NCBI GenBank assembly: GCA_947372925.1
Contig: CANBVQ010000001.1
Span: forward strand, 54,286 to 118,285
DNA from: Acidimicrobiaceae bacterium
GTDB lineage: Bacteria; Actinomycetota; Acidimicrobiia; Acidimicrobiales; RAAP-2
Length of the DNA: 64,000 bases
Direction of reading: 5' to 3'
Shown here: positions 8,357-41,087 of the stretch, piece by piece
Layout: each line of letters opens with the position of its first letter
Position numbering within the stretch: the first letter of the stretch is position 1
The notes under the pieces: generated by a model
Told to the model about the DNA's origin: nothing
The model's database searches: none
What the model saw: only the letters and a program-made list of their open reading frames with translations
Made by a program: the position numbers and the translations under genes

Positions 8357-11300
8357 GTGAAACTAAGGCTCCCAGGATCTTTTGATGTGGCCAGACTGCG
8401 GCGTTTCCGCACCTGGGACACATTTTTATTCGCCCTGATTGCCTATGTGCCCTTCTTTGGTAACAATCCGGGGAAGGTATCTGCCGACACTAAGGCCTAT
8501 CTCTACCTCGATCCAAGCCACCTGCTCGCAACTGCCACCTCTATGTGGAACGCCGATCAAGGCTTCGGCATGGTGACGCACCAAAACATTGGCTACCTCT
8601 TTCCGATGGGGCCATTCTTCTGGCTGACTCACACGATTGGTATTCCGACATGGATAGCGCAGCGTTTCTGGATGGGCTCACTGCTTTTCTTAGCGGGACT
8701 CGGCGTGCGAAAGGCCGCTCAAGAACTGGGCCTCAGCAGAGTGGCATCGTGGAGTGCGGCGCTCCCCTATGTCTTCACGCCATTCATCTTGGTCAACATC
8801 GGAAGAACCTCCGCCATTTTGATGCCTTGGGCCGGTTTGGGCTGGCTACTCCTTTTTGCCATTAGATCCGCACGCTTTGGTGGATGGAAAAACCCCGCCC
8901 GATTCGCGCTCGTAGTGGCCCTCGTCGGTGGAGTTAATGCGACGTCCATCCTCTTGGTGGGTCTCGCGCCAGCAGTGTGGCTGCTATTCGCCGCCACCAC
9001 CAGGGAGATTTCTTGGCGCTCACTCGCTTCCACGGTTTCGCGCATCGGACTTCTATGCAGCTCGGTATCACTTTGGTGGATCGCCGGCCTTTGGGCCGAA
9101 GGCAAATTCGGTATCAATATCTTGCAGTACACCGAAACGATTCCTACGGTCGCCAGTACTTCGAGCAGTTCGGAAGTTTTCCGAGGTTTGGGCTATTGGT
9201 ACTTCTACGGATGGGATCACTCTCAAGCGTGGACTAGCTCATCCGTTGGCTACACCACTGGCCAATTCGCACCCATTTTCAGTTTGATTCTTCCGACCGC
9301 GGCGGTCATCGCCGCCATGTTTGTCAAGTGGCGCTATCGGACATTTTCCGTACTGCTCGCTTTCCTCGGCGTCGTAATTGCAGTTGGTGCGTACCCATAC
9401 AACTCACCTACGCCGGCAGGCTCGGCGCTGAAGTGGTTTGGAGAAAACACCACCGTGGGTCTCGCAATGCGTTCGACTAATCGCGTGGTGCCAATCATGG
9501 TGTTGGCTCTAGGACTACTACTTGGGTCCAGTGTTGATGCGCTGAGAAGCCGCCATCCACGACGTATCTTGCCCGTGTTCGGCCTGATCTTCCTCGCCGC
9601 AACCATCGGATTAACTCCGCTATTCAATGGAACAGCGCTCGCTACGAATCTCAGCTCGTCGCAGAAACTGCCCGCGTACGTTGAGAATGCTGCCAAAGAT
9701 CTGAACTCGGGCGACACATCCACTGGCGTACTCGGCCTCCCTGGCCTCGACTTCGGCTACTACCGATGGGGTGCCTACGTGGACTCTGCTTGGCCTGGAT
9801 TGCTCAAACGGCCCTACGTGACGAGTCAAATTACGCTCCAGGGGCAACCGGCAAGCGTGAATCTCGTTCGATCTCTCGATAGTCCCATTCAGGACTTAAT
9901 AGCCCTGCCGAGGAGCATCGCTCCAATTGCAAGGTTGCTCGGGACTGGTGATGTGCTTTTCCAATTCGATACCCAGTTCGATCGGTTTAGCGGTCCAGAA
10001 CCTTGGTATCTGTGGCGCTTATCGCAGTCACCGAGTTTGGGACTCGTATTCAAAAAGGCCTACGGTCCCGTTGTTACGGATCAAGTCGGCGACGGCCCTT
10101 TCATCAACGAGAGCAACCTCGCTCTGCCTCAAGGATTCAAGTGGCCTCGATCGCTAGCCATCTATGGCGTTCAAGGTGTCCGACAACTCGTCAGAATTGA
10201 GTCAAGTGCGTCTCCTGCAATAGTTGCCGGGGACGGCGAAGGCTTGGTCAATATGGCGGGCCTTGGAATTCTCCCGGAGGATCGGGCTATTTTCTACGAC
10301 GGAGCACTGACCGCTTCGCAACTCGAACGACTGACAGCAAACGCAACTGCCAGTCTGTATGTGACGGACTCCAATCAGCGGCGCCTAAATAGTTACGGCG
10401 TACTTCACTCAAGCCCTGGCTATGTTCAGCAGGCCGGAGAGACACCGATTGTTAAAAGCCCGTCGCAGCAGACGTTGCTGGCGTACCCCGACACAGTTTC
10501 AGGGGCTCAGACTGTTGCCGTATTGGGCAATATCAAATCAGTCCAAGCTTCTTCTTATGGCAATCCAATAGCCAACAATCCCGAAGTGCAGGCCTACTAC
10601 TCGCTTGATGGCCTGGTCGACACAGCGTGGCAAACCTCTGCTTTCGGAAAAGCACCCGGCCAATTTATTCAGATTGACATGGGGCACCGCCTTAGCTTCA
10701 ATCGACTCCGACTCACCCAAGCACAGTCGTCCACGATTAACCGATGGATCACGCAGGTGACGATAACCGTCGACGGAAAATCGCTCGGTAAATTCAGCCT
10801 TTCAAAGTCGACGAGGAGTCGGCGAGGTGGTGTCATCAAACTACCCAAGACTTCAGGTTCGGTTATTCGCATCACCATCAATCAGACGTCCCATGATGAT
10901 GGAAATCTCGCTGGACAGTCTGGGGTTGGTTTCGCTGAGATTTCAATTCCCGGGCTTCCCGCAGTAACTCACAGTTTGATGATGCCAACAAGTCTTTTAA
11001 ACAGAGCCGGCAATGCGGCTCTGGTGAATGATCTCCGTTTTGTCATGACACGTGCTCGAGTGGCAACAACGCCACCAAGGCTTGATCCGGAGCTGACTAT
11101 CGACAGGATGTTTGAACTACCAGCAGGCCGAATGTTCACTATTCGCGGCACCACTTCAATCCAACCCGCTGCATCTGACGCAACCATCAGCCGCCTCCTT
11201 GGCATCGGTGGTTCAAGTAACGGTCAAATTGTGCGATCGTCAAGCTCGACCCGTCTGGTTGGATCATTAACGAATGGCCCATGGGCTGCATTTGACGGTG

Positions 11301-13492
11301 ATCAGACAACGAGCTGGATGCCTGGATTCCAGACGGGGCCCAACACCTGGCTCGAAGGTGGAACTAAGGACTCGACCACCATCTCGCGAGCCAACATCAC
11401 ATTTGTGAATGATGGACTTCACATGGTTCCGACCAGACTCCTTCTCACAGCCGATGGTGGTGCTGGCGGCTCTTACAGCTTCAACACGCACATGAAGATT
11501 GCAAAGAACGCAGCCAGGGGTGCTACCCAAACTCTGAAGGTTTCATTCCCTGCGATGACGGGACGCTCGTTCCGCTTGAGTGTTGATCAGTTTCTGGCTG
11601 TGGGCGTCAAGGACAGAATTTCCGGGGCACTCAACCATCCTCCGATTGCAATTACAGAATGGAAGCTCGGAACCATAAAGCCTGAATCAATCTCTTCTAC
11701 TTTCCGCTCAACTTGCCGAAGCGATCTGATTTCCATCGACGGAACAGGGATTCCTGTGTACGTGCATGGTTCCACCGCTGACGCATTGGCGCAACACCAG
11801 ATTGCGTTCTCTAGCTGCGGAGAGAAATTCTCTCTCTCAGCCGGTACGCATCACCTGCGCGCGGCGTTTGGTGTTGGCACGGGAATCAATATTGACAACA
11901 TTTCACTCGCCTCACTTGCCGACTCCGCCAGTCCAGCGGTAACGCCAATACTGAATCTGAAGAGTCACTGGACAAATCGCTGGAGCATGGAAGCTCGAAT
12001 TCCGGCGAACGCCGCGGGTCAGTATGTCGCTGTTGGTCAGAGCTTCGGCCCAGGATGGACCGCCCGTCTGGATGGAGCAGATCTTGGAGCACCGCTTCTA
12101 ATCGATGGCGCTTCAATGGGATGGCTCCTTCCCTCAAAGATGAGTGGAGCCCAGAACCTAGTAGTGACCTGGACGCCACAAGGGACAGTAAATCTCGCAT
12201 TGCTGGCTTCTCTTTTAGGCCTCCTCCTCTGCCTCGGAATTTCGACTGGAAGGGCTCCTAAGAGTTCCACCTGGATGAGCGATGCGCGTCCCACGGTTCT
12301 TCGTGATCCATCTGTTAGGCGTCCCGCACTGGTCTTTGGCGTGAGTCTCTTAGTTGGCCTCTGTGTTTCGTGGTGGTTTATTCCTTTGAGCCTGCTTGCG
12401 GCTGTGTATCTCTTCTCAAGCCCTTCATCTACCAAATCAATCCCTCGGTTCATCACGGTGCTCTTAGTAACCGCCGGCGGTTGTACTGTCGCGGCAAATC
12501 AGATGCATCTCGTTCGTTCGATTGAATGGCCGAATCACGTTCCGCTAGCCAATGGGTTGACGTGGATTGCGCTGGCTCTTTGGGTAGTGGTGATTATCGC
12601 TACCGGACCCAAGCTCCAGGCGTCAACGGCACAGCCAGTTGGCGAAGACGTGGTTGAAACCGAGCGCCGCCGAGGCCTCAATGTTCCCGTTAGCGCCGAA
12701 TCACTTACAACCGACGAACGCGATCTACTTCCTCTGGTGGTAGCACCTCGCGGGGCTCTACGTTCGCTTGCTCTTCTCCGTGCCTTATTGGTGAAGAGGC
12801 GTGATCCCGATCTATATCGACGGATTGTCCTCACCGACACCATGAATCAGGTAGTCGGCAAGAGCCCTCTGTTCAACAGGAGGATCCTCGAGATTGCTGA
12901 CTTTGATACCTCGTACGCTGCGGGCTTTGCAGAGCGTGGCGCTCGGGTCACATCAATGCGTCGAGAACTGCCTCAGCCCAAGCGTGGCATCGCGAAGATT
13001 GCCAGTCAAAATGCAGACCCCGTGGCACCAGAGGTGGCGTACACCCCGCTGCACATTCCGTCGGGCGATAAGTCATTCGATTTAGTGTTCGCCACGAATG
13101 TCCTCAGTAGTGTTGAGGAGCCTGAGGCTTTGATCAACGAACTAGTCCGTGTTACCCGACCCGGCGGCTCCATTTACCTCCAAAACACCACGTGGTTCTC
13201 GCCATGGGGCGGCAGGGAGACTTCGCCGTGGCATCTAATTTCCGGCAATTTCGCACGACGCGCGTACACGCGCAAGCACGGACACCTTCCCCGCAATGTG
13301 TATTCTCAAAACTTCTTCCGTATCCGCATCAGCGAGGTAATGGAATCGCTCCGTGACGATCCTCGGATAGTGGTTGTCAGCGCTCATCCGCGTTATCTAC
13401 CGGAGAGTTTTGGTTGGTTGCTCCGTATTCCCTTGGTGAACGAACTGCTCACGTTGAGTCTGGTTGTAACCCTCGAAAGAACTGCCGATTAG
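8357..13492 (+). CDS. AftD-family (DUF3367) alpha-(1->3)-arabinofuranosyltransferase-like GT-C membrane protein with two discoidin/CBM32-like domains, fused to a C-terminal Rv0224c/MtrP-like class I methyltransferase domain
   Basis: N-terminal multi-TM region with ADTKAYLYLDP, HQNIGYLFPMGPF and WIAQRFW (AftD-like). Discoidin-like motifs YSLDGLVDTAW and AAFDGDQTTSW. A second TM bundle, then a ~250-aa domain with FDLVFATNV, ELVRVTRPGG, PWGGRET and RKHGHLPRNVY. Confidence 0.85.
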   Translation: MKLRLPGSFDVARLRRFRTWDTFLFALIAYVPFFGNNPGKVSADTKAYLYLDPSHLLATATSMWNADQGFGMVTHQNIGYLFPMGPFFWLTHTIGIPTWIAQRFWMGSLLFLAGLGVRKAAQELGLSRVASWSAALPYVFTPFILVNIGRTSAILMPWAGLGWLLLFAIRSARFGGWKNPARFALVVALVGGVNATSILLVGLAPAVWLLFAATTREISWRSLASTVSRIGLLCSSVSLWWIAGLWAEGKFGINILQYTETIPTVASTSSSSEVFRGLGYWYFYGWDHSQAWTSSSVGYTTGQFAPIFSLILPTAAVIAAMFVKWRYRTFSVLLAFLGVVIAVGAYPYNSPTPAGSALKWFGENTTVGLAMRSTNRVVPIMVLALGLLLGSSVDALRSRHPRRILPVFGLIFLAATIGLTPLFNGTALATNLSSSQKLPAYVENAAKDLNSGDTSTGVLGLPGLDFGYYRWGAYVDSAWPGLLKRPYVTSQITLQGQPASVNLVRSLDSPIQDLIALPRSIAPIARLLGTGDVLFQFDTQFDRFSGPEPWYLWRLSQSPSLGLVFKKAYGPVVTDQVGDGPFINESNLALPQGFKWPRSLAIYGVQGVRQLVRIESSASPAIVAGDGEGLVNMAGLGILPEDRAIFYDGALTASQLERLTANATASLYVTDSNQRRLNSYGVLHSSPGYVQQAGETPIVKSPSQQTLLAYPDTVSGAQTVAVLGNIKSVQASSYGNPIANNPEVQAYYSLDGLVDTAWQTSAFGKAPGQFIQIDMGHRLSFNRLRLTQAQSSTINRWITQVTITVDGKSLGKFSLSKSTRSRRGGVIKLPKTSGSVIRITINQTSHDDGNLAGQSGVGFAEISIPGLPAVTHSLMMPTSLLNRAGNAALVNDLRFVMTRARVATTPPRLDPELTIDRMFELPAGRMFTIRGTTSIQPAASDATISRLLGIGGSSNGQIVRSSSSTRLVGSLTNGPWAAFDGDQTTSWMPGFQTGPNTWLEGGTKDSTTISRANITFVNDGLHMVPTRLLLTADGGAGGSYSFNTHMKIAKNAARGATQTLKVSFPAMTGRSFRLSVDQFLAVGVKDRISGALNHPPIAITEWKLGTIKPESISSTFRSTCRSDLISIDGTGIPVYVHGSTADALAQHQIAFSSCGEKFSLSAGTHHLRAAFGVGTGINIDNISLASLADSASPAVTPILNLKSHWTNRWSMEARIPANAAGQYVAVGQSFGPGWTARLDGADLGAPLLIDGASMGWLLPSKMSGAQNLVVTWTPQGTVNLALLASLLGLLLCLGISTGRAPKSSTWMSDARPTVLRDPSVRRPALVFGVSLLVGLCVSWWFIPLSLLAAVYLFSSPSSTKSIPRFITVLLVTAGGCTVAANQMHLVRSIEWPNHVPLANGLTWIALALWVVVIIATGPKLQASTAQPVGEDVVETERRRGLNVPVSAESLTTDERDLLPLVVAPRGALRSLALLRALLVKRRDPDLYRRIVLTDTMNQVVGKSPLFNRRILEIADFDTSYAAGFAERGARVTSMRRELPQPKRGIAKIASQNADPVAPEVAYTPLHIPSGDKSFDLVFATNVLSSVEEPEALINELVRVTRPGGSIYLQNTTWFSPWGGRETSPWHLISGNFARRAYTRKHGHLPRNVYSQNFFRIRISEVMESLRDDPRIVVVSAHPRYLPESFGWLLRIPLVNELLTLSLVVTLERTAD

Positions 13493-14646
13493 CGCTTTTC
13501 GCTGAGTAGCTGAAAGAGCTTCAAGGCAGCACTGTCCCATGTGAGCGACTGCGCATACTTGAGTGCTCCCTCACGAAGCGACCCAAGCAGCTCTTCGTCC
13601 TGCAGAACATTCGAGATAGTTGTGGCTACTTGCGCCTCATCGACCAGCAGTCCGCTGTGACCATCCATCACGGCGTCACGATGGCCGGCAATGTCTACGG
13701 CCACCGAGGGTGTGCCGCAGGCGGCCGCTTCAGTGAGAGACATCCCCCACCCTTCACGTAACGACATTGAAGAAACCAGCCAGGCGCGCTGATACAGGGC
13801 AAGCAGTTCTCCATCAGAGATTCTGCCCGCCAGCGTTATCCACTCCTGGGCGCCGTGGGCCGCAATCATTTCCTCCAGCTCCGTTCGAAGGTAGCCCTCG
13901 CCAACGATTACGAAACGCGCTGTCGGTACTTTCTTGCGGACTTCAATAAAGGAGTTGATTAAAAGGTCGAAACGCTTCACGGGCACCAACCGACCCACTG
14001 CGACGATCAATGGCGTCGGCGAACGGTCATCCCCGGGAACAAAAGAAGGGGAAATGCCCGGTGGCACTACTGCCACGCGCCGCAAGTGCATGCGATCCCC
14101 AATCTCCTCTTGAGAAGAGTTGGAGAGCGTCGCAATCGTCGTGCCTCGATAGAACGGTGGTGCCAGACGATGCTCAATGAGCCATCCAAGACGCCCTAGA
14201 AGGCCCGGCAAGGTCATCTGCCACATTTCCCCGTGTACGTGGTGGAGAAGCACCAGACGGCGGCCACGGTGCCACAGAGGAGAGAGGAAAGGCATCCCAT
14301 TCCAGATTTCCACCACTCCGTCAGGCCGGTGGGAGCGCCGACTGAAAAGTCCATTCAAAATGACACTCGGGAAGACTTGGTATCGCCCACCCCGACGATT
14401 TGCGACGTAGCCGTTCCGCTCGACTCTCGCAGCACGACCTGGAACGGCTGAAGTGCGAGACTCAATAGCAACTCCCGCAGCCGCCCATCGTTTCAAGATC
14501 TCGTCGGCGTGTAGTTCGGATCCCCCTGCTTCCGGGTCATCAAGATCTCTCCAGGCAACAACATTGACCGAAGTAATACCGCTGGTCTGCACCAGGGTCT
14601 TGAGCGATTCCTGGTCGCTAGGCATTGGAATCTCCGTTGATGCCAA
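13489..14646 (-). CDS. Glycosyltransferase family 4 (GT-B), Rv0225-like
   Basis: WRDLDDPEAGGSE N-terminus, VGRLVPVKRFD and EGWGMSLTEAAACGTP (GT4 EX7E motif). The true start may be ATG at 14625. Confidence 0.88.
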   Translation of the reverse strand: MASTEIPMPSDQESLKTLVQTSGITSVNVVAWRDLDDPEAGGSELHADEILKRWAAAGVAIESRTSAVPGRAARVERNGYVANRRGGRYQVFPSVILNGLFSRRSHRPDGVVEIWNGMPFLSPLWHRGRRLVLLHHVHGEMWQMTLPGLLGRLGWLIEHRLAPPFYRGTTIATLSNSSQEEIGDRMHLRRVAVVPPGISPSFVPGDDRSPTPLIVAVGRLVPVKRFDLLINSFIEVRKKVPTARFVIVGEGYLRTELEEMIAAHGAQEWITLAGRISDGELLALYQRAWLVSSMSLREGWGMSLTEAAACGTPSVAVDIAGHRDAVMDGHSGLLVDEAQVATTISNVLQDEELLGSLREGALKYAQSLTWDSAALKLFQLLSEKR

Positions 14647-15874
14647 TCGGGCGCAAAGTGGCTAGGAGAAGACCCAGGAAGACCACCATCTGGAGGATGA
14701 GATCGCGATGCACTGTTTCCGCAATGGCGCCACCGGCTTGAGCGAGGTAGAGCGCTCCCCCCACTGTGCTGCAGGCCAGCCAGAGCGTCGGCCACCGTCG
14801 ACCAGAACCGAGGAGATACACGGAAAGCAACGTGCTTCCTCCTAGAAATACCATCGCCAAGATCAAGCTTGTCATCGACCCGTACTCCGTGGCGTAGCGA
14901 GACCCAAAGACGAGCGTAAGGAGCCTTTCGGGTGCAAGTTCGGAAGCAATGAGAAGCAGAGCGACCGGGATAAGCAGCAGGCCACCGGCGATTGTCAGCT
15001 GACGGTATGCATCTCGTCCTCGTCGATCGGCAATTGCCGTCTCGGGTAGTAAGAAGTTGCCAAGAATGATCGCCCCATAGACGATTGTCTTCGCCACTTG
15101 TGAGATTGCCGAGTACGCACCCGCAGCGCTGGAGCTATATCGGCCGATCAGAAACACATCGATGAACTGGAGTGTTGCCAGCAATGCGAGTGTCGCCAAT
15201 GCAATCAGGAGATCAGTGGTGATTCCTGTGTGCTCGAGCGCCTGTTCGTTGCGCGCCACATCTCGCACCCGCACGAGCCGTCGAGCGTGCCAACGAGCAA
15301 ATCCAATGGCCACCAAAAGGCCCGCGACGATTCCGGTCACACCGAATGGGCTTCCCAGAACCATGAACACGGTCCGCATGGCACCTTCTAGAAGGAAGTT
15401 GGAAGCGAGCGCCATGTAACGCTGTCGAGACTGGAGAAGCGCTCTGTCAACGTTCAGCAAGGCCCAGGAGATGGCAGCCAGGGCGTTGACCCATACGGCA
15501 AGCCACGAACGATGCCCCATCCACTGAGCCAAGAGGAAAGAGCCAGCCAGCGCGATAAGTGAAAAGATCAGCGCCCATCGAATGAGTCGTTGATTGAGCC
15601 GACGCTGCCAGCGCGCCATAAGAGATTCGTCATCCCTGACGAGGTAGTACGTCGCACGCCTCACCACCGCCACCGAGAGCGCTGAACCAGGAAGCGCGAC
15701 AATGAAGAAGATGCCAACCATCTGGGAGTAGGCACCGTACTCGGTCGGATTTAGAAGGCGAGCTATGAGAACGCTTACGCCAAGATTAAGAATGTTTGCT
15801 ACTAGTCCGGCGAAAGCAACTACGACGGCGCCACTGAGAAGTGCGTTTAGCCGTACCGCTATCCCCCGCGCCAT
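14618..15874 (-). CDS. Wzx-like oligosaccharide flippase / polysaccharide biosynthesis protein
   Basis: About 12 hydrophobic segments; NLGVSVLIARLLNPTEYGAY and DVFLIGRYSSSAAGAYSAISQVAK match the Wzx/MATE-like flippase pattern; glycosyltransferase neighbours. Confidence 0.75.
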   Translation of the reverse strand: MARGIAVRLNALLSGAVVVAFAGLVANILNLGVSVLIARLLNPTEYGAYSQMVGIFFIVALPGSALSVAVVRRATYYLVRDDESLMARWQRRLNQRLIRWALIFSLIALAGSFLLAQWMGHRSWLAVWVNALAAISWALLNVDRALLQSRQRYMALASNFLLEGAMRTVFMVLGSPFGVTGIVAGLLVAIGFARWHARRLVRVRDVARNEQALEHTGITTDLLIALATLALLATLQFIDVFLIGRYSSSAAGAYSAISQVAKTIVYGAIILGNFLLPETAIADRRGRDAYRQLTIAGGLLLIPVALLLIASELAPERLLTLVFGSRYATEYGSMTSLILAMVFLGGSTLLSVYLLGSGRRWPTLWLACSTVGGALYLAQAGGAIAETVHRDLILQMVVFLGLLLATLRPIGINGDSNA

Positions 15875-39936: not shown

Positions 39937-40392
39937 ATGGCTACGCATGTTGAGAGTATGGACGCTTACAAGGCACTCGTTGGGACCCATTTGGGTTATT
40001 CCGACTACATCACCGTGACCCAAGAACAGGTCAATAAGTTCGCTGACGCCACTGGCGATCACCAGTGGATTCACGTAGACCCCGAACGCGCCAAGTCCAG
40101 CCCCTTTGGTGGCCCAATTGCTCACGGCTATCTCACCCTCTCACTAATCCCAGTTCTGATGGGCCAAGTAGTCCGCGTTGACGGCGTCACGATGGGCGTT
40201 AACTACGGAACGAACAAAGTTCGCTTCCCAGCCCCAGTCCCAGTCGGATCAGAGATTCGCCTGGGTGCTGCAGTGGCCGAAGTCGAAGAGATTGGTGGTG
40301 GCATCCAAGTTGCCCTTGACGTCACCATCGAGGTCAAAGACGCGCCAAAGCCTTCGTGCGTAGCGCAAGTTGTCTTCCGCTACTACAAGTAA
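39937..40392 (+). CDS. MaoC-family (hydratase-2) dehydratase, HtdZ-like
   Basis: FADATGDHQWIHVD, PFGGPIAHGYLTLS, NYGTNKVRFPAPV; strong SD GGAGG. Confidence 0.9.
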   Translation: MATHVESMDAYKALVGTHLGYSDYITVTQEQVNKFADATGDHQWIHVDPERAKSSPFGGPIAHGYLTLSLIPVLMGQVVRVDGVTMGVNYGTNKVRFPAPVPVGSEIRLGAAVAEVEEIGGGIQVALDVTIEVKDAPKPSCVAQVVFRYYK

Positions 40393-40394
40393 CC

Positions 40395-41087
40395 GTGGCC
40401 CGTTTCGAGCTTCCCGAGGGAGAGGCGAAGACTAAGACCGTGCGTCGCATGTTCGACGCCATCGCCCCTCGATACGAGCTCGTAAACCACATAATTACCT
40501 TCGGTCTCGATCGCCGCTGGCGTAAACGGGCCCTTCGAGACGCTGGGCTCCCAGTGGGGAGCACAATCCTCGACGTTGCTGCAGGCACTGGAGACTTCTG
40601 TCGTGAAGCCGCCAAGGTAGGTTTTATCCCTTACGCCACAGATCTCAGTTTTGGCATGATGGATGCAGGGGGAGATTTCGCTCCTCGCACCCAAGCTGAT
40701 GCGGCGCATCTCCCCTTTGTCGATGGCGCATTCGACGGACTGACGTGTGGCTACGCGCTGCGAAACTTCACCGACCTAGCTGAGTCCATCCGCGAAATGG
40801 GCCGCGTCGTTCGCCCTGGTGGTCGGATCGTCTTTCTTGAAGTCGCCGAGCCCAAGGGTGGCCTCTGGAAGCTTGGCTTCACTATTTGGTTCAGGGGTGT
40901 TGTGCCTATCATCGGAGGCCTGTTGGCCGACCGAGCGGCGTACGGTTACTTGCCGAAATCAACGGCGTACCTGCCCGCCACCAACGAGATCATTCAGATG
41001 ATGGTTGACGGTGGTATGTCCACCGTCAACCATCGACTCATTCTCGGTGGCCTTTCTCAGCAGTTCACAGCAACGAAAGCGCTATGA
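40395..41087 (+). CDS. menG: Demethylmenaquinone methyltransferase (UbiE/MenG)
   Basis: MFDAIAPRYELVN...FGLDRRWR, LDVAAGTGD, DAAHLPF, YALRN, RVVRPGG, AYGYLPKS. GTG at 40395. Confidence 0.9.
   Translation: MARFELPEGEAKTKTVRRMFDAIAPRYELVNHIITFGLDRRWRKRALRDAGLPVGSTILDVAAGTGDFCREAAKVGFIPYATDLSFGMMDAGGDFAPRTQADAAHLPFVDGAFDGLTCGYALRNFTDLAESIREMGRVVRPGGRIVFLEVAEPKGGLWKLGFTIWFRGVVPIIGGLLADRAAYGYLPKSTAYLPATNEIIQMMVDGGMSTVNHRLILGGLSQQFTATKAL

What the first reader, a model, noticed from the sequence alone, without database searches (positions are those of the whole stretch)
12743..13492. The fused methyltransferase domain has lost its SAM-binding glycine motif (probable pseudo-enzyme)
Seen: where class I motif I should be (12884-12916) the sequence reads RRILEIADFDTSYAAGF, with no GxGxG. 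The following strand ends VTSMRRE, and the post-II segment reads NVLSSV rather than the usual NVxEHV/HL. Downstream family motifs (WGGRET, HGHLPRN, PRYLP) are retained. Established: class I MTases use the (D/E)xGxGxG loop to bind SAM; Rv0224c-type proteins have LDVGGGPG. Inference: the domain is probably catalytically dead but keeps a substrate- or partner-binding surface, acting as a regulatory or chain-termination module on the glycosyltransferase.
Basis: partly seen in the sequence, partly recalled or inferred. Interest (0 to 1): 0.7.

Follow-up and report, generated by a model that had tools for sequence, protein, structure and literature searches.

The report
Dead MtrP-like methyltransferase domain on AftD
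The last 250 residues of a 1711-residue AftD-type cell-wall glycosyltransferase are a methyltransferase-like domain of the mycobacterial MtrP/Rv0224c family that has lost its predicted cofactor-contact residues and the family's other invariant residues, yet is still kept by selection, so it is most likely a non-catalytic "pseudo-enzyme" module.

Summary
Window 8357-13492 (+) is one 1711-aa ORF: an AftD GT-C domain, carbohydrate-binding modules, a C-terminal TM block and a class I methyltransferase-like domain (12743-13489).

I aligned 193 relatives and tracked seven hallmark residues: G52, G54, D/E73, E122, H123, H158 and K184 (domain numbering). Of these relatives, 152 keep 6-7 of the seven, including a Mycobacterium MtrP/Rv0224c protein. 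Thirty-eight keep 0-1, and these include the window.

In the window's clade:
- The ribose-binding acid is Arg (32/33 sequences), followed by a second Arg (30/33).
- The small motif III residue is Phe or Tyr (33/33).
- The motif I loop is variable.

The clade is monophyletic (100/100) on a 0.82 substitutions/site stem. It is nested inside AftD-fused relatives with intact motifs, so the fusion came first and a single loss followed.

The domain is not decaying. dN is 0.10-0.22 against saturated dS. The predicted fold is confident (pLDDT 89), and new clade-specific conserved residues have appeared.

The genome holds no intact paralogue.

Best reading: a dead methyltransferase kept as a cytoplasmic non-catalytic module of the AftD-like enzyme. 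This is a new variant of a known kind and is moderately interesting.

The parts
8357..13492 (+). Single 1711-codon ORF: AftD-like GT-C glycosyltransferase fused to an MtrP-like methyltransferase-like domain
   Evidence: ORF list; Pfam GT-C_AftD 246.8 bits, F5/8 type C, Methyltransf_11; 25 full-length fused homologues
8447..10441 (+). GT-C_AftD catalytic membrane domain (residues 31-695)
   Evidence: PF11847 E 4.2e-73; most conserved part of the protein (88-92% aa identity to L030-L032, dN 0.056-0.079)
10541..11578 (+). Discoidin-type carbohydrate-binding modules (residues 729-844 and 978-1074), presumably periplasmic
   Evidence: PF00754 and PF22633 hits
12179..12622 (+). C-terminal transmembrane block (residues 1275-1422; 4 hydrophobic stretches, one 32 aa long). 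It is inferred to place the following domain in the cytoplasm
   Evidence: Kyte-Doolittle scan. The topology is inferred from positive-inside loops and from the cytoplasmic SAM requirement of the intact fused relatives
12662..12688 (+). Linker motif ERRRGLNVP, specific to the degenerate clade
   Evidence: [RK]R[RK]GLN[VIMA] is present in 29/29 degenerate-clade proteins that have upstream sequence and in 0/153 intact relatives
12743..13489 (+). MtrP/Rv0224c-family class I methyltransferase-like domain (residues 1463-1711; domain numbering 1-249), here a pseudo-methyltransferase
   Evidence: BLASTP to Mycobacterium P0294: 29% identity, E 8e-30. AF2 pLDDT 89.1 with Rossmann strand order. Foldseek top hits are all class I MTases
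12884..12916 (+). Former motif I (strand 1 plus loop): ILEIADFDTSY where the family has (V/L)xD(V/L)GGGPG(Y/F)F. A52 replaces G52 and F54 replaces G54
   Evidence: G52 and G54 are each 98% in 153 intact members. The degenerate clade has S/A/T at 52 and F/T/S/A at 54. Mean pairwise identity of the loop is 0.30 against 0.69 in intact members
12959..12964 (+). R73-R74 (residues 1535-1536) at the C-terminal end of strand 2, where the ribose-binding acid of motif II should be
   Evidence: Position 73 is D or E in 152/153 intact members and R in 32/33 degenerate members. Position 74 is R in 30/33. Strand 2 spans residues 68-74 in the model
13040..13042 (+). Y100 (residue 1562) at the end of strand 3, the motif III adenine site
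   Evidence: Intact members have G or A at 99%. Degenerate members have F or Y at 100%
13106..13111 (+). S122-S123 (residues 1584-1585) after strand 4 (motif IV), replacing the family-invariant E-H
   Evidence: E122 and H123 are 100% in intact members. The degenerate clade has S at 94% and S/C/T/M
13214..13216 (+). R158 (residue 1620) in WGGRET, replacing the family-invariant His of WGGHE
   Evidence: H is 100% in intact members. The degenerate clade has R 64%, F 18% and H 6%
13292..13294 (+). R184 (residue 1646) in PRN, replacing the family Lys of PKN
   Evidence: K is 95% in intact members. The position is variable (R/F/V...) in the degenerate clade
13489..14646 (-). Rv0225-like GT4 glycosyltransferase, convergent with the fusion ORF and overlapping its stop codon by 4 nt. 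It is a conserved partner gene of the module
   Evidence: Pfam Glycos_transf_1. 31% identity, E 2e-52 over the full length to the GT4 next to mtrP in M. marinum. Same synteny in L030-L032, L043 and L044

Best explanation
The C-terminal domain (residues 1463-1711) is a pseudo-methyltransferase. It is a true homologue of the MtrP/Rv0224c family of class I SAM-dependent methyltransferases and keeps the Rossmann fold and the family's C-terminal subdomain. It can no longer bind SAM in the canonical way or catalyse methyl transfer.

History (shown):
1. mtrP-like genes lie next to aftD-like genes across the class.
2. In the window's family the two fused into one protein with intact motifs.
3. In the window's genus a single burst of substitutions then replaced the motif I glycines, the motif II ribose-binding acid (now Arg-Arg), the small motif III residue (now Phe/Tyr) and the family-invariant E-H, H and K.

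Mechanism (inferred). The domain sits on the cytoplasmic face, behind the last transmembrane helices of the AftD-like GT-C enzyme. It is retained by selection as a non-catalytic module, either a docking or organising surface or an allosteric element. Likely partners are the glycosyltransferase itself and/or its conserved neighbours, for example the Rv0225-like GT4. The former cofactor site is plugged and re-shaped by newly fixed residues: R73, R74, Y/F100, N45-R46, R65 and the NQxVG helix.
For: Loss of every SAM-contact element and of family-invariant residues. Markers are 7/7 in 140 sequences and 6/7 in 12, against 0/7 in 31 and 1/7 in 7. Position 73 is D/E in 152/153 intact members and R in 32/33 degenerate members. 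Position 100 is G/A at 99% against F/Y at 100%. The roles of these motifs in SAM binding follow Kozbial & Mushegian 2005 (PMC1282579).

Pfam matches only the C-terminal half of the MTase profile in clade members, but the full profile in intact relatives.

Single origin after the fusion. The degenerate clade is monophyletic at 100/100 on a 0.82 subs/site stem. It sits inside the fused-intact sequences L009, P0151, P0145 and P0150 (sequences).

Continued selection. dN is 0.10-0.22 against saturated dS (pS 0.66-0.80), giving a ratio of at most about 0.13, similar to the CBM region of the same protein. There are 33 distinct full-length sequences down to 41% identity and none is truncated. The domain is kept even where the gene has split.

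New constraints. Strand 2 has identity 0.73 in the clade against 0.47 in intact members. Twenty-eight positions are conserved only in the clade, and there is a clade-specific linker motif (29/29 against 0/153).

Fold kept. AF2 gives pLDDT 89.1 and pTM 0.87 with canonical strand order. Foldseek hits are class I MTases.

Family link. The window domain matches Mycobacterium P0294 at E 8e-30 and the intact intermediate P0011 matches it at 44% identity, E 5e-61. The M. marinum orthologue lies in the tmaT-type locus.

No intact family paralogue exists in the 96%-complete genome. The other hits are MenG and a generic MTase.
Against: No biochemical data exist. Loss of SAM binding is inferred from sequence and a predicted fold, and the model's coordinates could not be inspected or docked. 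Some active class I methyltransferases tolerate single departures from GxGxG. Stand-alone members of this very family have GAGP, ACGPG or GGAAG. The glycine loss alone would therefore not be decisive; the argument rests on the combination.

dS is saturated, so dN/dS values are only upper-bound style estimates. The nature of the retained function and of any partner is not shown. One genome of the same genus lacks the whole AftD-MT module, so the module is not essential for the lineage.
Confidence: 0.7

Rival explanations
1. Neofunctionalised ligand sensor. The former SAM pocket has been rebuilt to bind a different, probably anionic, ligand such as a polyprenyl-phosphate sugar, a nucleotide sugar, a phospholipid head group or an acidic partner protein. 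Binding would couple to the activity of the AftD-like enzyme.
For: The changes look like replacement by a new pattern rather than decay. R73 and R74 are nearly invariant, and R46, R65, R19 and the NQxVG motif are conserved only in the clade. Mean net charge of the domain rises from +4.0 to +9.6. Most of the gain lies in the N-terminal lid helices and the strand 1-strand 2 half that formed the cofactor site. The long stem branch followed by constraint fits a shift of function.
Against: No ligand is identified and no docking or coordinates were available. Arginines and an aromatic residue could simply fill and stabilise an empty pocket. The motif I loop itself is poorly conserved within the clade (identity 0.30), which is unexpected for a specific ligand site.
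Confidence: 0.2
2. The domain is still an active methyltransferase that binds SAM in a non-canonical way.
For: The fold is predicted with confidence. D113, N119, the RPGG turn and the WGGxETSPWH loop are kept. The domain is under purifying selection. Single departures from GxGxG occur in presumably active family members.
Against: All three SAM-contact motifs are replaced by bulky or oppositely charged residues at once (G to F/T/S, D/E to R, G/A to F/Y). The family's invariant E-H, H and K, which are likely active-site residues, are also gone. The loop that should cradle SAM is the least conserved segment of the domain in this clade.
Confidence: 0.05
3. The domain is a functionless relic that is slowly decaying after its activity became unnecessary.
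For: One genome of the genus has lost the whole module. Some relatives have split the gene or inserted about 150 residues between strands 2 and 3. In this clade the segment between strands 2 and 3 (residues 76-97) carries an 8-residue insertion (87-94) and is variable and of low confidence.
Against: dN is far below dS. All 33 distinct sequences are full length, although a C-terminal domain could be truncated without harming the rest. Overall conservation equals that of the intact family (0.51 against 0.50), and new invariant positions have appeared. Split copies keep their own start codon and reading frame.
Confidence: 0.03

Closest known systems
MtrP (C. glutamicum NCgl2764/cgp_3168; M. tuberculosis Rv0224c), the putative SAM-dependent methyltransferase of the tmaT locus
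   Same: It belongs to the same protein family. The window domain matches the Mycobacterium protein P0294 over its full length (E 8e-30), and intact intermediates match it at 44% identity. The family C-terminal motifs are shared: W.SPWGG.E.SPWH and PRY.P. The gene neighbourhood logic is also shared, with an Rv0225-like GT4 and AftD nearby. In C. glutamicum the phenotypic profiles of mtrP and aftD correlate with that of tmaT at r > 0.9 (bioRxiv 10.64898/2026.07.31.741767).
   Different: MtrP is a separate soluble protein with an intact LDVGGGPG loop, strand 2 acid, EH, H and K. Here the domain is fused to AftD and all of those residues are replaced. The host is a small-genome (1.49 Mb) member of a class whose named relatives are Acidimicrobiales and unclassified Actinobacteria MAGs, not a mycolate producer. 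The window cluster holds no tmaT- or mmpA-like gene.
Non-catalytic Rossmann-fold methyltransferase homologues: METTL14, DNMT3L, Trm6/Gcd10, yeast mtTFB
   Same: These are homologues of class I methyltransferases whose SAM-binding motifs are degenerate. Yeast mtTFB, for example, has a bulky Tyr in the motif I loop (PMC1282579). They persist as scaffolds or activators.
   Different: Those proteins act on nucleic-acid machinery, and most pair with an active paralogue. Here no active paralogue is present in the genome, and the partner is a membrane glycosyltransferase to which the domain is covalently fused.
Pseudo-methyltransferase (psi-ME / psi-CMeT) domains inside animal fatty-acid synthase and some polyketide synthases (from my own knowledge, not tested here)
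   Same: A dead methyltransferase domain kept as a structural part of a large multidomain biosynthetic enzyme.
   Different: It is a different methyltransferase family and a different enzyme class: a soluble megasynthase rather than a GT-C membrane glycosyltransferase.
AftD (Rv0236c), arabinofuranosyltransferase D of Mycobacteriales
   Same: The N-terminal GT-C_AftD domain, the discoidin-type CBMs and the C-terminal TM block are shared.
   Different: No published AftD carries a methyltransferase-like domain. A full-text search for AftD + 'methyltransferase domain' + fusion found no paper.
WbdD-type chain-terminating methyltransferases of O-antigen assembly
   Same: A methyltransferase domain associated with a glycan polymerisation system.
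   Different: WbdD terminates chains by actually capping them, which needs catalysis. The domain here lacks the residues for it, and no homology to WbdD was seen in any search.

Membership tests
Class I (Rossmann-fold) SAM-dependent methyltransferases, as functional enzymes | Seven-stranded Rossmann-like fold with strand 1 - loop - helix A - strand 2 order | tested here: met
   AF2 pLDDT 89.1. Strands are at 47-52, 68-74, 98-101, 112-118, 138-149, 209-216 and 239-246. The Foldseek top 50 are all class I MTases or MTase-fold enzymes, best E 8e-11
Class I (Rossmann-fold) SAM-dependent methyltransferases, as functional enzymes | Motif I glycine-rich loop (GxGxG) after strand 1, contacting the carboxypropyl part of SAM | tested here: not met
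   The sequence is ADFDTSY. G52 and G54 are 98% conserved in intact relatives and absent in all 33 clade members
Class I (Rossmann-fold) SAM-dependent methyltransferases, as functional enzymes | Acidic residue at the C-terminus of strand 2 (motif II), hydrogen-bonding the ribose hydroxyls | tested here: not met
   R73. The position is D/E in 152/153 intact relatives and R in 32/33 clade members
Class I (Rossmann-fold) SAM-dependent methyltransferases, as functional enzymes | Motif III small/acidic residues at the end of strand 3, contacting adenine | tested here: not met
   (G/A)(D/S)(A/G) is replaced by (F/Y)(T/S)(P/A/N). The window has Y100-T101-P102
Class I (Rossmann-fold) SAM-dependent methyltransferases, as functional enzymes | Binding of SAM and methyl transfer | not testable with these tools
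   This needs ITC or DSF and activity assays, or docking into coordinates that the tools do not return
MtrP/Rv0224c family (by descent) | Full-length sequence homology to Mycobacterium/Corynebacterium MtrP orthologues | tested here: met
   P0001 against P0294: 29% identity over 244 aa, E 8e-30. P0011 against P0294: 44% identity, E 5e-61. P0294 is 100% identical to the sequence I recalled as Rv0224c, and its nearest named relatives are Mycobacterium spp.. The locus-tag name rests on my memory plus the tmaT-type neighbourhood of the M. marinum orthologue
MtrP/Rv0224c family (by descent) | Family-specific C-terminal subdomain motifs (W151, G156-G157, E159, P162-W163-H164, P216-R217, P230) | tested here: met
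   These are conserved in both the intact and the degenerate groups
MtrP/Rv0224c family (by descent) | Family-invariant E122-H123, H158 and K184 (probable active-site residues) | tested here: not met
   The window has S-S, R and R. These are lost throughout the clade
MtrP/Rv0224c family (by descent) | Genomic association with aftD-like and Rv0225-like GT4 genes | tested here: met
   The domain is fused to AftD and adjacent to the GT4. In relatives G151, G012 and G095 the separate mtrP-like gene lies 1.3-5 kb from an aftD-like gene
Pseudoenzyme (dead homologue retained by selection) | Descent from an active enzyme family, loss of catalytic or cofactor residues, and continued purifying selection | tested here: met
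   Tree; marker loss; dN far below dS and full-length retention in 33 sequences
AftD-type GT-C glycosyltransferases | PF11847 GT-C_AftD domain above the curated cut-off, with CBMs and a C-terminal TM block | tested here: met
   246.8 bits against a cut-off of 26. F5/8 type C scores 56 bits. TM block

The most novel reading that the evidence does not exclude
MtrP-family proteins may have a methylation-independent job on AftD-type glycosyltransferases, and this job is what selection keeps here. The natural AftD-MtrP fusion, followed by complete loss of the catalytic apparatus without loss of the domain, would then be a 'Rosetta stone plus natural mutant'. It would show that MtrP physically works on the cytoplasmic face of AftD. 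It would also show that its scaffold or allosteric role can outlive catalysis. The ex-SAM pocket, now an Arg-Arg plus aromatic site, may have been converted into a sensor for an anionic envelope precursor. That would bear directly on the open question of what the essential MtrP does in mycobacterial and corynebacterial envelope assembly.
Probability: 0.2. Interest if true: 0.75.

Novelty: new variant of a known kind. Interest (0 to 1): 0.5.

Why it matters
MtrP (Rv0224c) is described as essential in mycobacteria and is needed for trehalose-mycolate acetylation and export in Corynebacterium. Its substrate and mechanism are unknown (PMC8698533; bioRxiv 10.64898/2026.07.15.738315 and 10.64898/2026.07.31.741767).

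This locus gives two pieces of comparative evidence that are independent of mycolate biology:
- In mycolate-free relatives the mtrP-like gene travels with aftD-like genes and has fused to one of them. This argues for direct physical cooperation on the cytoplasmic side of AftD.
- One lineage then discarded the predicted SAM-contact residues and the family's invariant residues while keeping the domain under selection. This argues that the family has a non-catalytic function worth testing.

It also adds a membrane glycosyltransferase to the short list of enzymes that carry a dead methyltransferase domain. Finally, it warns annotators that 'methyltransferase domain-containing protein' is a misleading label for this clade.

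Tried and rejected
1. Absolute dN/dS. The closest available relatives (72-86% aa identity in the domain) already have saturated synonymous sites (pS 0.66-0.83). Only the statement 'dN far below dS' is safe.

2. Trm112-like partner as a correlate of activity. PF03966 and tblastn with the genus' own Trm112-like proteins found nothing in the window's genome. However, three other genus members with the same dead domain keep a Trm112-like gene. There is therefore no clean correlation, and absence may reflect the 96%-complete, 101-contig assembly.

3. Acyl_transf_3 (TmaT-like) presence or absence. The family is too broad, with 5 copies in this genome, to say anything.

4. The 418-aa membrane protein next to the GT4 is not MmpA-like. 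BLASTP to the M. marinum 599-aa protein gave no significant match.

5. NCBIfam has no dedicated model for the MtrP family. Only generic sub-threshold MTase hits appeared.

6. The Rainczuk et al. 2020 MtrP paper (PMC7196642) is not held. Whether a SAM-site mutant of MtrP was ever tested could not be checked.

7. A first, too strict regular expression for GxGxG wrongly called GAGP-type stand-alone members 'degenerate'. It was replaced by the seven-marker score.

8. My first locus alignment ignored strand and was discarded. It was redone with six-frame ORFs.

9. A second structure job was not used, because the tool returns no coordinates or inter-domain error. It could not show pocket occlusion or docking against the TM block.
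Full report
WHAT IS THERE. Window 8357-13492 (+) is one uninterrupted ORF of 1711 codons. Pfam finds four elements:
- an N-terminal GT-C_AftD domain (residues 31-695, 246.8 bits);
- discoidin-type carbohydrate-binding modules;
- after a hydrophobic block (residues 1275-1422), a Methyltransf_11 match that covers only profile positions 47-94 of 95.

ILEIADFDTSY lies exactly at 12884-12916, and VTSMRRE, NVLSSV, WGGRET, HGHLPRN and PRYLP are all present. I number the domain 1-249. Full-length residue = domain number + 1462, and the window coordinate of the codon start = 12743 + 3(n-1).

IS THE MOTIF LOSS REAL AND MORE THAN CHANCE? Stand-alone relatives of 230-285 aa (Nocardiopsis, Marmoricola, Thermobifida and many metagenomic proteins) have LDVGGGPG(Y/F)F, an acid at the end of strand 2, NVLEHV, WGGHETSPWH and PKN.

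I gathered 193 non-identical domains from three protein searches and a 201-genome search of the window's class. I scored seven hallmark positions: G52, G54, D/E73, E122, H123, H158 and K184. The distribution is bimodal:
- 140 sequences have 7/7 and 12 have 6/7;
- 31 have 0/7 and 7 have 1/7;
- three sequences lie in between (scores 3, 4 and 5).

In the window's clade (33 clean sequences) compared with 153 intact ones:
- position 73 is R in 32/33, against D/E in 152/153;
- position 74 is R in 30/33;
- position 100 is F/Y in 100%, against G/A in 99%;
- E122-H123 is S-(S/C/T/M);
- H158 is mostly R or F;
- K184 is variable.

According to the standard description of Rossmann-fold methyltransferases, the GxGxG loop contacts the carboxypropyl group of SAM. 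The acid at the end of strand 2 binds the ribose hydroxyls. Strand 3 residues contact the base, and residues after strand 4 contact the methionine part and line the catalytic pocket (Kozbial & Mushegian 2005, PMC1282579). The predicted secondary structure puts these positions exactly there: strand 1 at 47-52, helix A at 59-64, strand 2 at 68-74, strand 3 at 98-101 and strand 4 at 112-118.

So all three cofactor-contact elements are replaced, by bulky or oppositely charged residues, together with four other family-invariant residues. WGGRET and PRN each carry a substitution at an invariant family position.

Pfam reflects the same split. Intact members, including the Mycobacterium protein, match Methyltransf_11 over positions 1-94 at 60-75 bits. 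Clade members match only from position 47-53 onward at 31-36 bits.

CAVEAT ON THE GLYCINES. Single departures (GAGP, ACGPG, ASGPG, GGAAG) occur in stand-alone members that keep all other markers. The glycine loss alone would not prove inactivity. The case rests on the combination.

HISTORY. Across the class, only members of the window's GTDB genus carry the degenerate form: the window's genome plus G029, G155 and G135. A same-family genome (G119) has a fused 1873-aa protein with intact ADVGGGPGYF ... VEPE ... NVLEHV ... WGGHE. All other matching genomes have separate, intact genes.

Among 25 fused full-length homologues, 24 are degenerate. One (P0145, named as an Acidimicrobiales MAG protein) is intact.

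A maximum-likelihood tree places the 33 degenerate sequences in one clade with 100/100 support, on a stem of 0.82 substitutions per site. The clade is nested within the fused-intact sequences L009, P0151, P0145 and P0150. The order of events is therefore neighbouring genes, then fusion, then a single burst that removed the catalytic apparatus.

Separate mtrP-like genes lie within a few kilobases of aftD-like genes in G151, G012 and G095. This fits a fusion of functionally linked neighbours.

IS THE DOMAIN STILL SELECTED? I compared three syntenic relatives (L030-L032). In the domain, dN is 0.10-0.22 while synonymous sites are saturated (pS 0.66-0.80). The ratio, where it can be computed, is 0.04-0.13. 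That is like the CBM region and only somewhat higher than the GT-C domain.

Further signs of selection:
- All 33 distinct sequences, down to 41% identity, are full length. A C-terminal domain could be lost by a single stop codon.
- Mean pairwise identity over the domain equals that of the intact family (0.51 against 0.50). It is redistributed, however. The former motif I loop is relaxed (0.30 against 0.69), while strand 2 is tighter (0.73 against 0.47).
- Twenty-eight positions are conserved only in this clade. They include N35, Q36, G39, N45, R46, R65, V69, T70, M72, R73, R74, S122, W225 and E245.
- A linker motif [RK]R[RK]GLN[VIMA] (window 12662-12688) is present in 29/29 clade proteins and 0/153 others.
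- Net charge rises from +4.0 to +9.6, mostly in the N-terminal helices and the strand 1-strand 2 half.
- AlphaFold2 predicts the fold with pLDDT 89.1 and pTM 0.87. The only weak part is the variable stretch 76-100, between strands 2 and 3 and into strand 3 (10-residue block means 74, 50 and 64 for 71-100). Foldseek returns only class I methyltransferases and MTase-fold enzymes.
- Where the gene has split again, the degenerate domain is kept with its own start. In L044 the AftD gene (1437 aa) overlaps a 396-aa MT-like gene. In L008 an in-frame stop is followed at once by ATG.

This is the signature of a retained pseudo-enzyme, not of a relic.

FAMILY IDENTITY. The collection holds a 254-aa protein (P0294, 384 cluster members) that is 100% identical to it. 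Its nearest named relatives (84-87%) are from Mycobacterium kansasii, M. marinum, M. shinjukuense and others.

The M. marinum orthologue lies beside a GT4, a 599-aa membrane protein, a PorA-family protein and an Acyl_transf_3 protein on one side. On the other side lie an aldehyde dehydrogenase and an enoyl-CoA hydratase. From my knowledge this is the Rv0222-Rv0228 (tmaT) region. The locus-tag assignment rests on that recollection.

The window domain aligns with P0294 end to end (29% identity, E 8e-30). The intact relative P0011 does so at 44% identity (E 5e-61). The GT4 next to the window ORF (13489-14646, minus strand) is 31% identical (E 2e-52) to the GT4 next to mtrP in M. marinum. Homology to the MtrP family is therefore shown, while functional membership as a methyltransferase fails on tested defining features.

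CONTEXT. The cluster reads as follows:
- uvrC-uvrA-uvrB-coaE;
- the AftD-MT fusion (+);
- GT4, a 418-aa multi-pass membrane protein without Pfam match, an FAD amine-oxidase-like protein and a PMT_2 GT-C enzyme (all on the minus strand);
- ABC permeases.

This order is kept in L030-L032 and L044. The genome (1.49 Mb, 96% complete) has no other member of the family. The two weaker hits are MenG (window 40356-41087) and a generic Methyltransf_11 protein. No tmaT- or mmpA-like gene is in the cluster.

HOW IT MOST LIKELY WORKS.

Shown: the domain descends from an active MtrP-type enzyme fused to AftD. It has lost the residues needed for canonical SAM binding and the family's invariant pocket residues. 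It is still constrained, with new constraints centred on the old cofactor site.

Inferred:
- The domain is cytoplasmic. It follows a TM block whose loops obey the positive-inside rule, and its intact fused relatives need cytoplasmic SAM.
- It now serves as a non-catalytic module of the AftD-like enzyme, either as a docking or organising surface or as an allosteric element.
- The old pocket is plugged by R73, R74 and Y100.
- The conserved C-terminal subdomain (W151 ... WGGxETSPWH ... PRYLP), which is equally conserved in both groups, is the best candidate for the surface whose function survives.

Recent preprints report that aftD and mtrP share phenotypic profiles with tmaT in C. glutamicum, that AftD has a non-enzymatic partner role with TmaT, and that MtrP is predicted to pair with a Trm112-like protein. 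These make a physical AftD-MtrP relationship plausible, but they were obtained in mycolate producers.

I put about 0.85 on 'not a SAM-dependent methyltransferase any more' and about 0.7 on the whole statement. I put about 0.2 on the variant in which the rebuilt pocket binds a new anionic ligand.

Capping needs the lost chemistry.

NOVELTY. Dead methyltransferase homologues kept as scaffolds are well known. Yeast mtTFB and Gcd10 are cited in PMC1282579. METTL14, DNMT3L and the pseudo-methyltransferase domains of fatty-acid and polyketide synthases come from my own knowledge. What is new is the family (MtrP), the carrier (an AftD-type GT-C membrane glycosyltransferase) and the clear order of fusion followed by loss.

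A full-text search found no paper combining AftD, 'methyltransferase domain' and fusion. It agrees with my reading but is not independent evidence.

My rating is a new variant of a known kind, with interest of about 0.5.

Noticed in passing
window 12662-12688: The linker motif ERRRGLNVP, about 20 residues before the domain, is invariant in pattern ([RK]R[RK]GLN[VIMA]) in 29/29 proteins of the degenerate clade. It is absent from 153 intact relatives, including the fused-intact ones. It arose together with the loss of the catalytic residues, and its role is unknown.
   Followed up: partly
L043:5964-7762: A 126-kb metagenomic contig carries a separate degenerate MT-like gene (P0008, 253 aa). It is preceded only by a remnant matching AftD residues 1179-1416. 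There is no GT-C domain, and unrelated genes lie upstream (cytochrome c assembly, radical SAM). The downstream GT4, membrane protein, FAD and PMT_2 genes are kept. Either the catalytic AftD part was lost there or the contig is chimeric.
   Followed up: partly
L044:2691-8191: This is a gene fission variant. The AftD gene (1437 aa) and the MT-like gene (396 aa) overlap by 4 nt. The MT-like protein carries an insertion of about 150 residues between strands 2 and 3. It could serve as a natural two-protein version for interaction tests.
   Followed up: partly
whole genome G000 (own), and G029/G155/G135/G159: No Trm112-like gene (PF03966) is detectable in the window's genome, by HMM or by tblastn with the genus' own homologues. 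Four other genomes of the genus have one, with the zinc-knuckle cysteines replaced (LEDP or LVDP instead of LACP). The absence may be an assembly gap.
   Followed up: partly
genome G159 (same genus): This genome lacks both the GT-C_AftD gene and the MT-like domain, and it has no Acyl_transf_3 hits. The whole module is therefore dispensable in at least one close relative.
   Followed up: no
window 13489-13492: The fusion ORF and the convergent GT4 gene overlap by 4 nt at their 3' ends. The same overlap is seen in L030, L031, L032, L043 and L044.
   Followed up: no
window 14618-15874 (-): A 418-aa multi-pass membrane protein has no Pfam match. It is conserved in synteny in all relatives examined (418-424 aa). 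It is not similar to mycobacterial MmpA. It may be a flippase or polymerase of the glycan pathway.
   Followed up: partly
L030:9112-9849: In the closest relative (86% identical domain) the GT4 neighbour is called as only 245 aa, with a 390-nt gap before the next gene. This suggests a frameshift or a truncated GT4 in that metagenome contig.
   Followed up: no
window 40356-41087 (+): This is a MenG/UbiE-type demethylmenaquinone methyltransferase (TIGR01934, 168 bits). It is the only other class I methyltransferase in the window and is unrelated to the MtrP family.
   Followed up: yes
P0171, P0192, P0272, P0166 (protein ids): A few other relatives outside the main clade also score 0-1 of 7 markers, for example P0171 with DAGASSG, VSFPG, ALQQV, GGMET and PAN. 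This hints at independent degenerations of MtrP-like proteins elsewhere. Some may be fragments.
   Followed up: no
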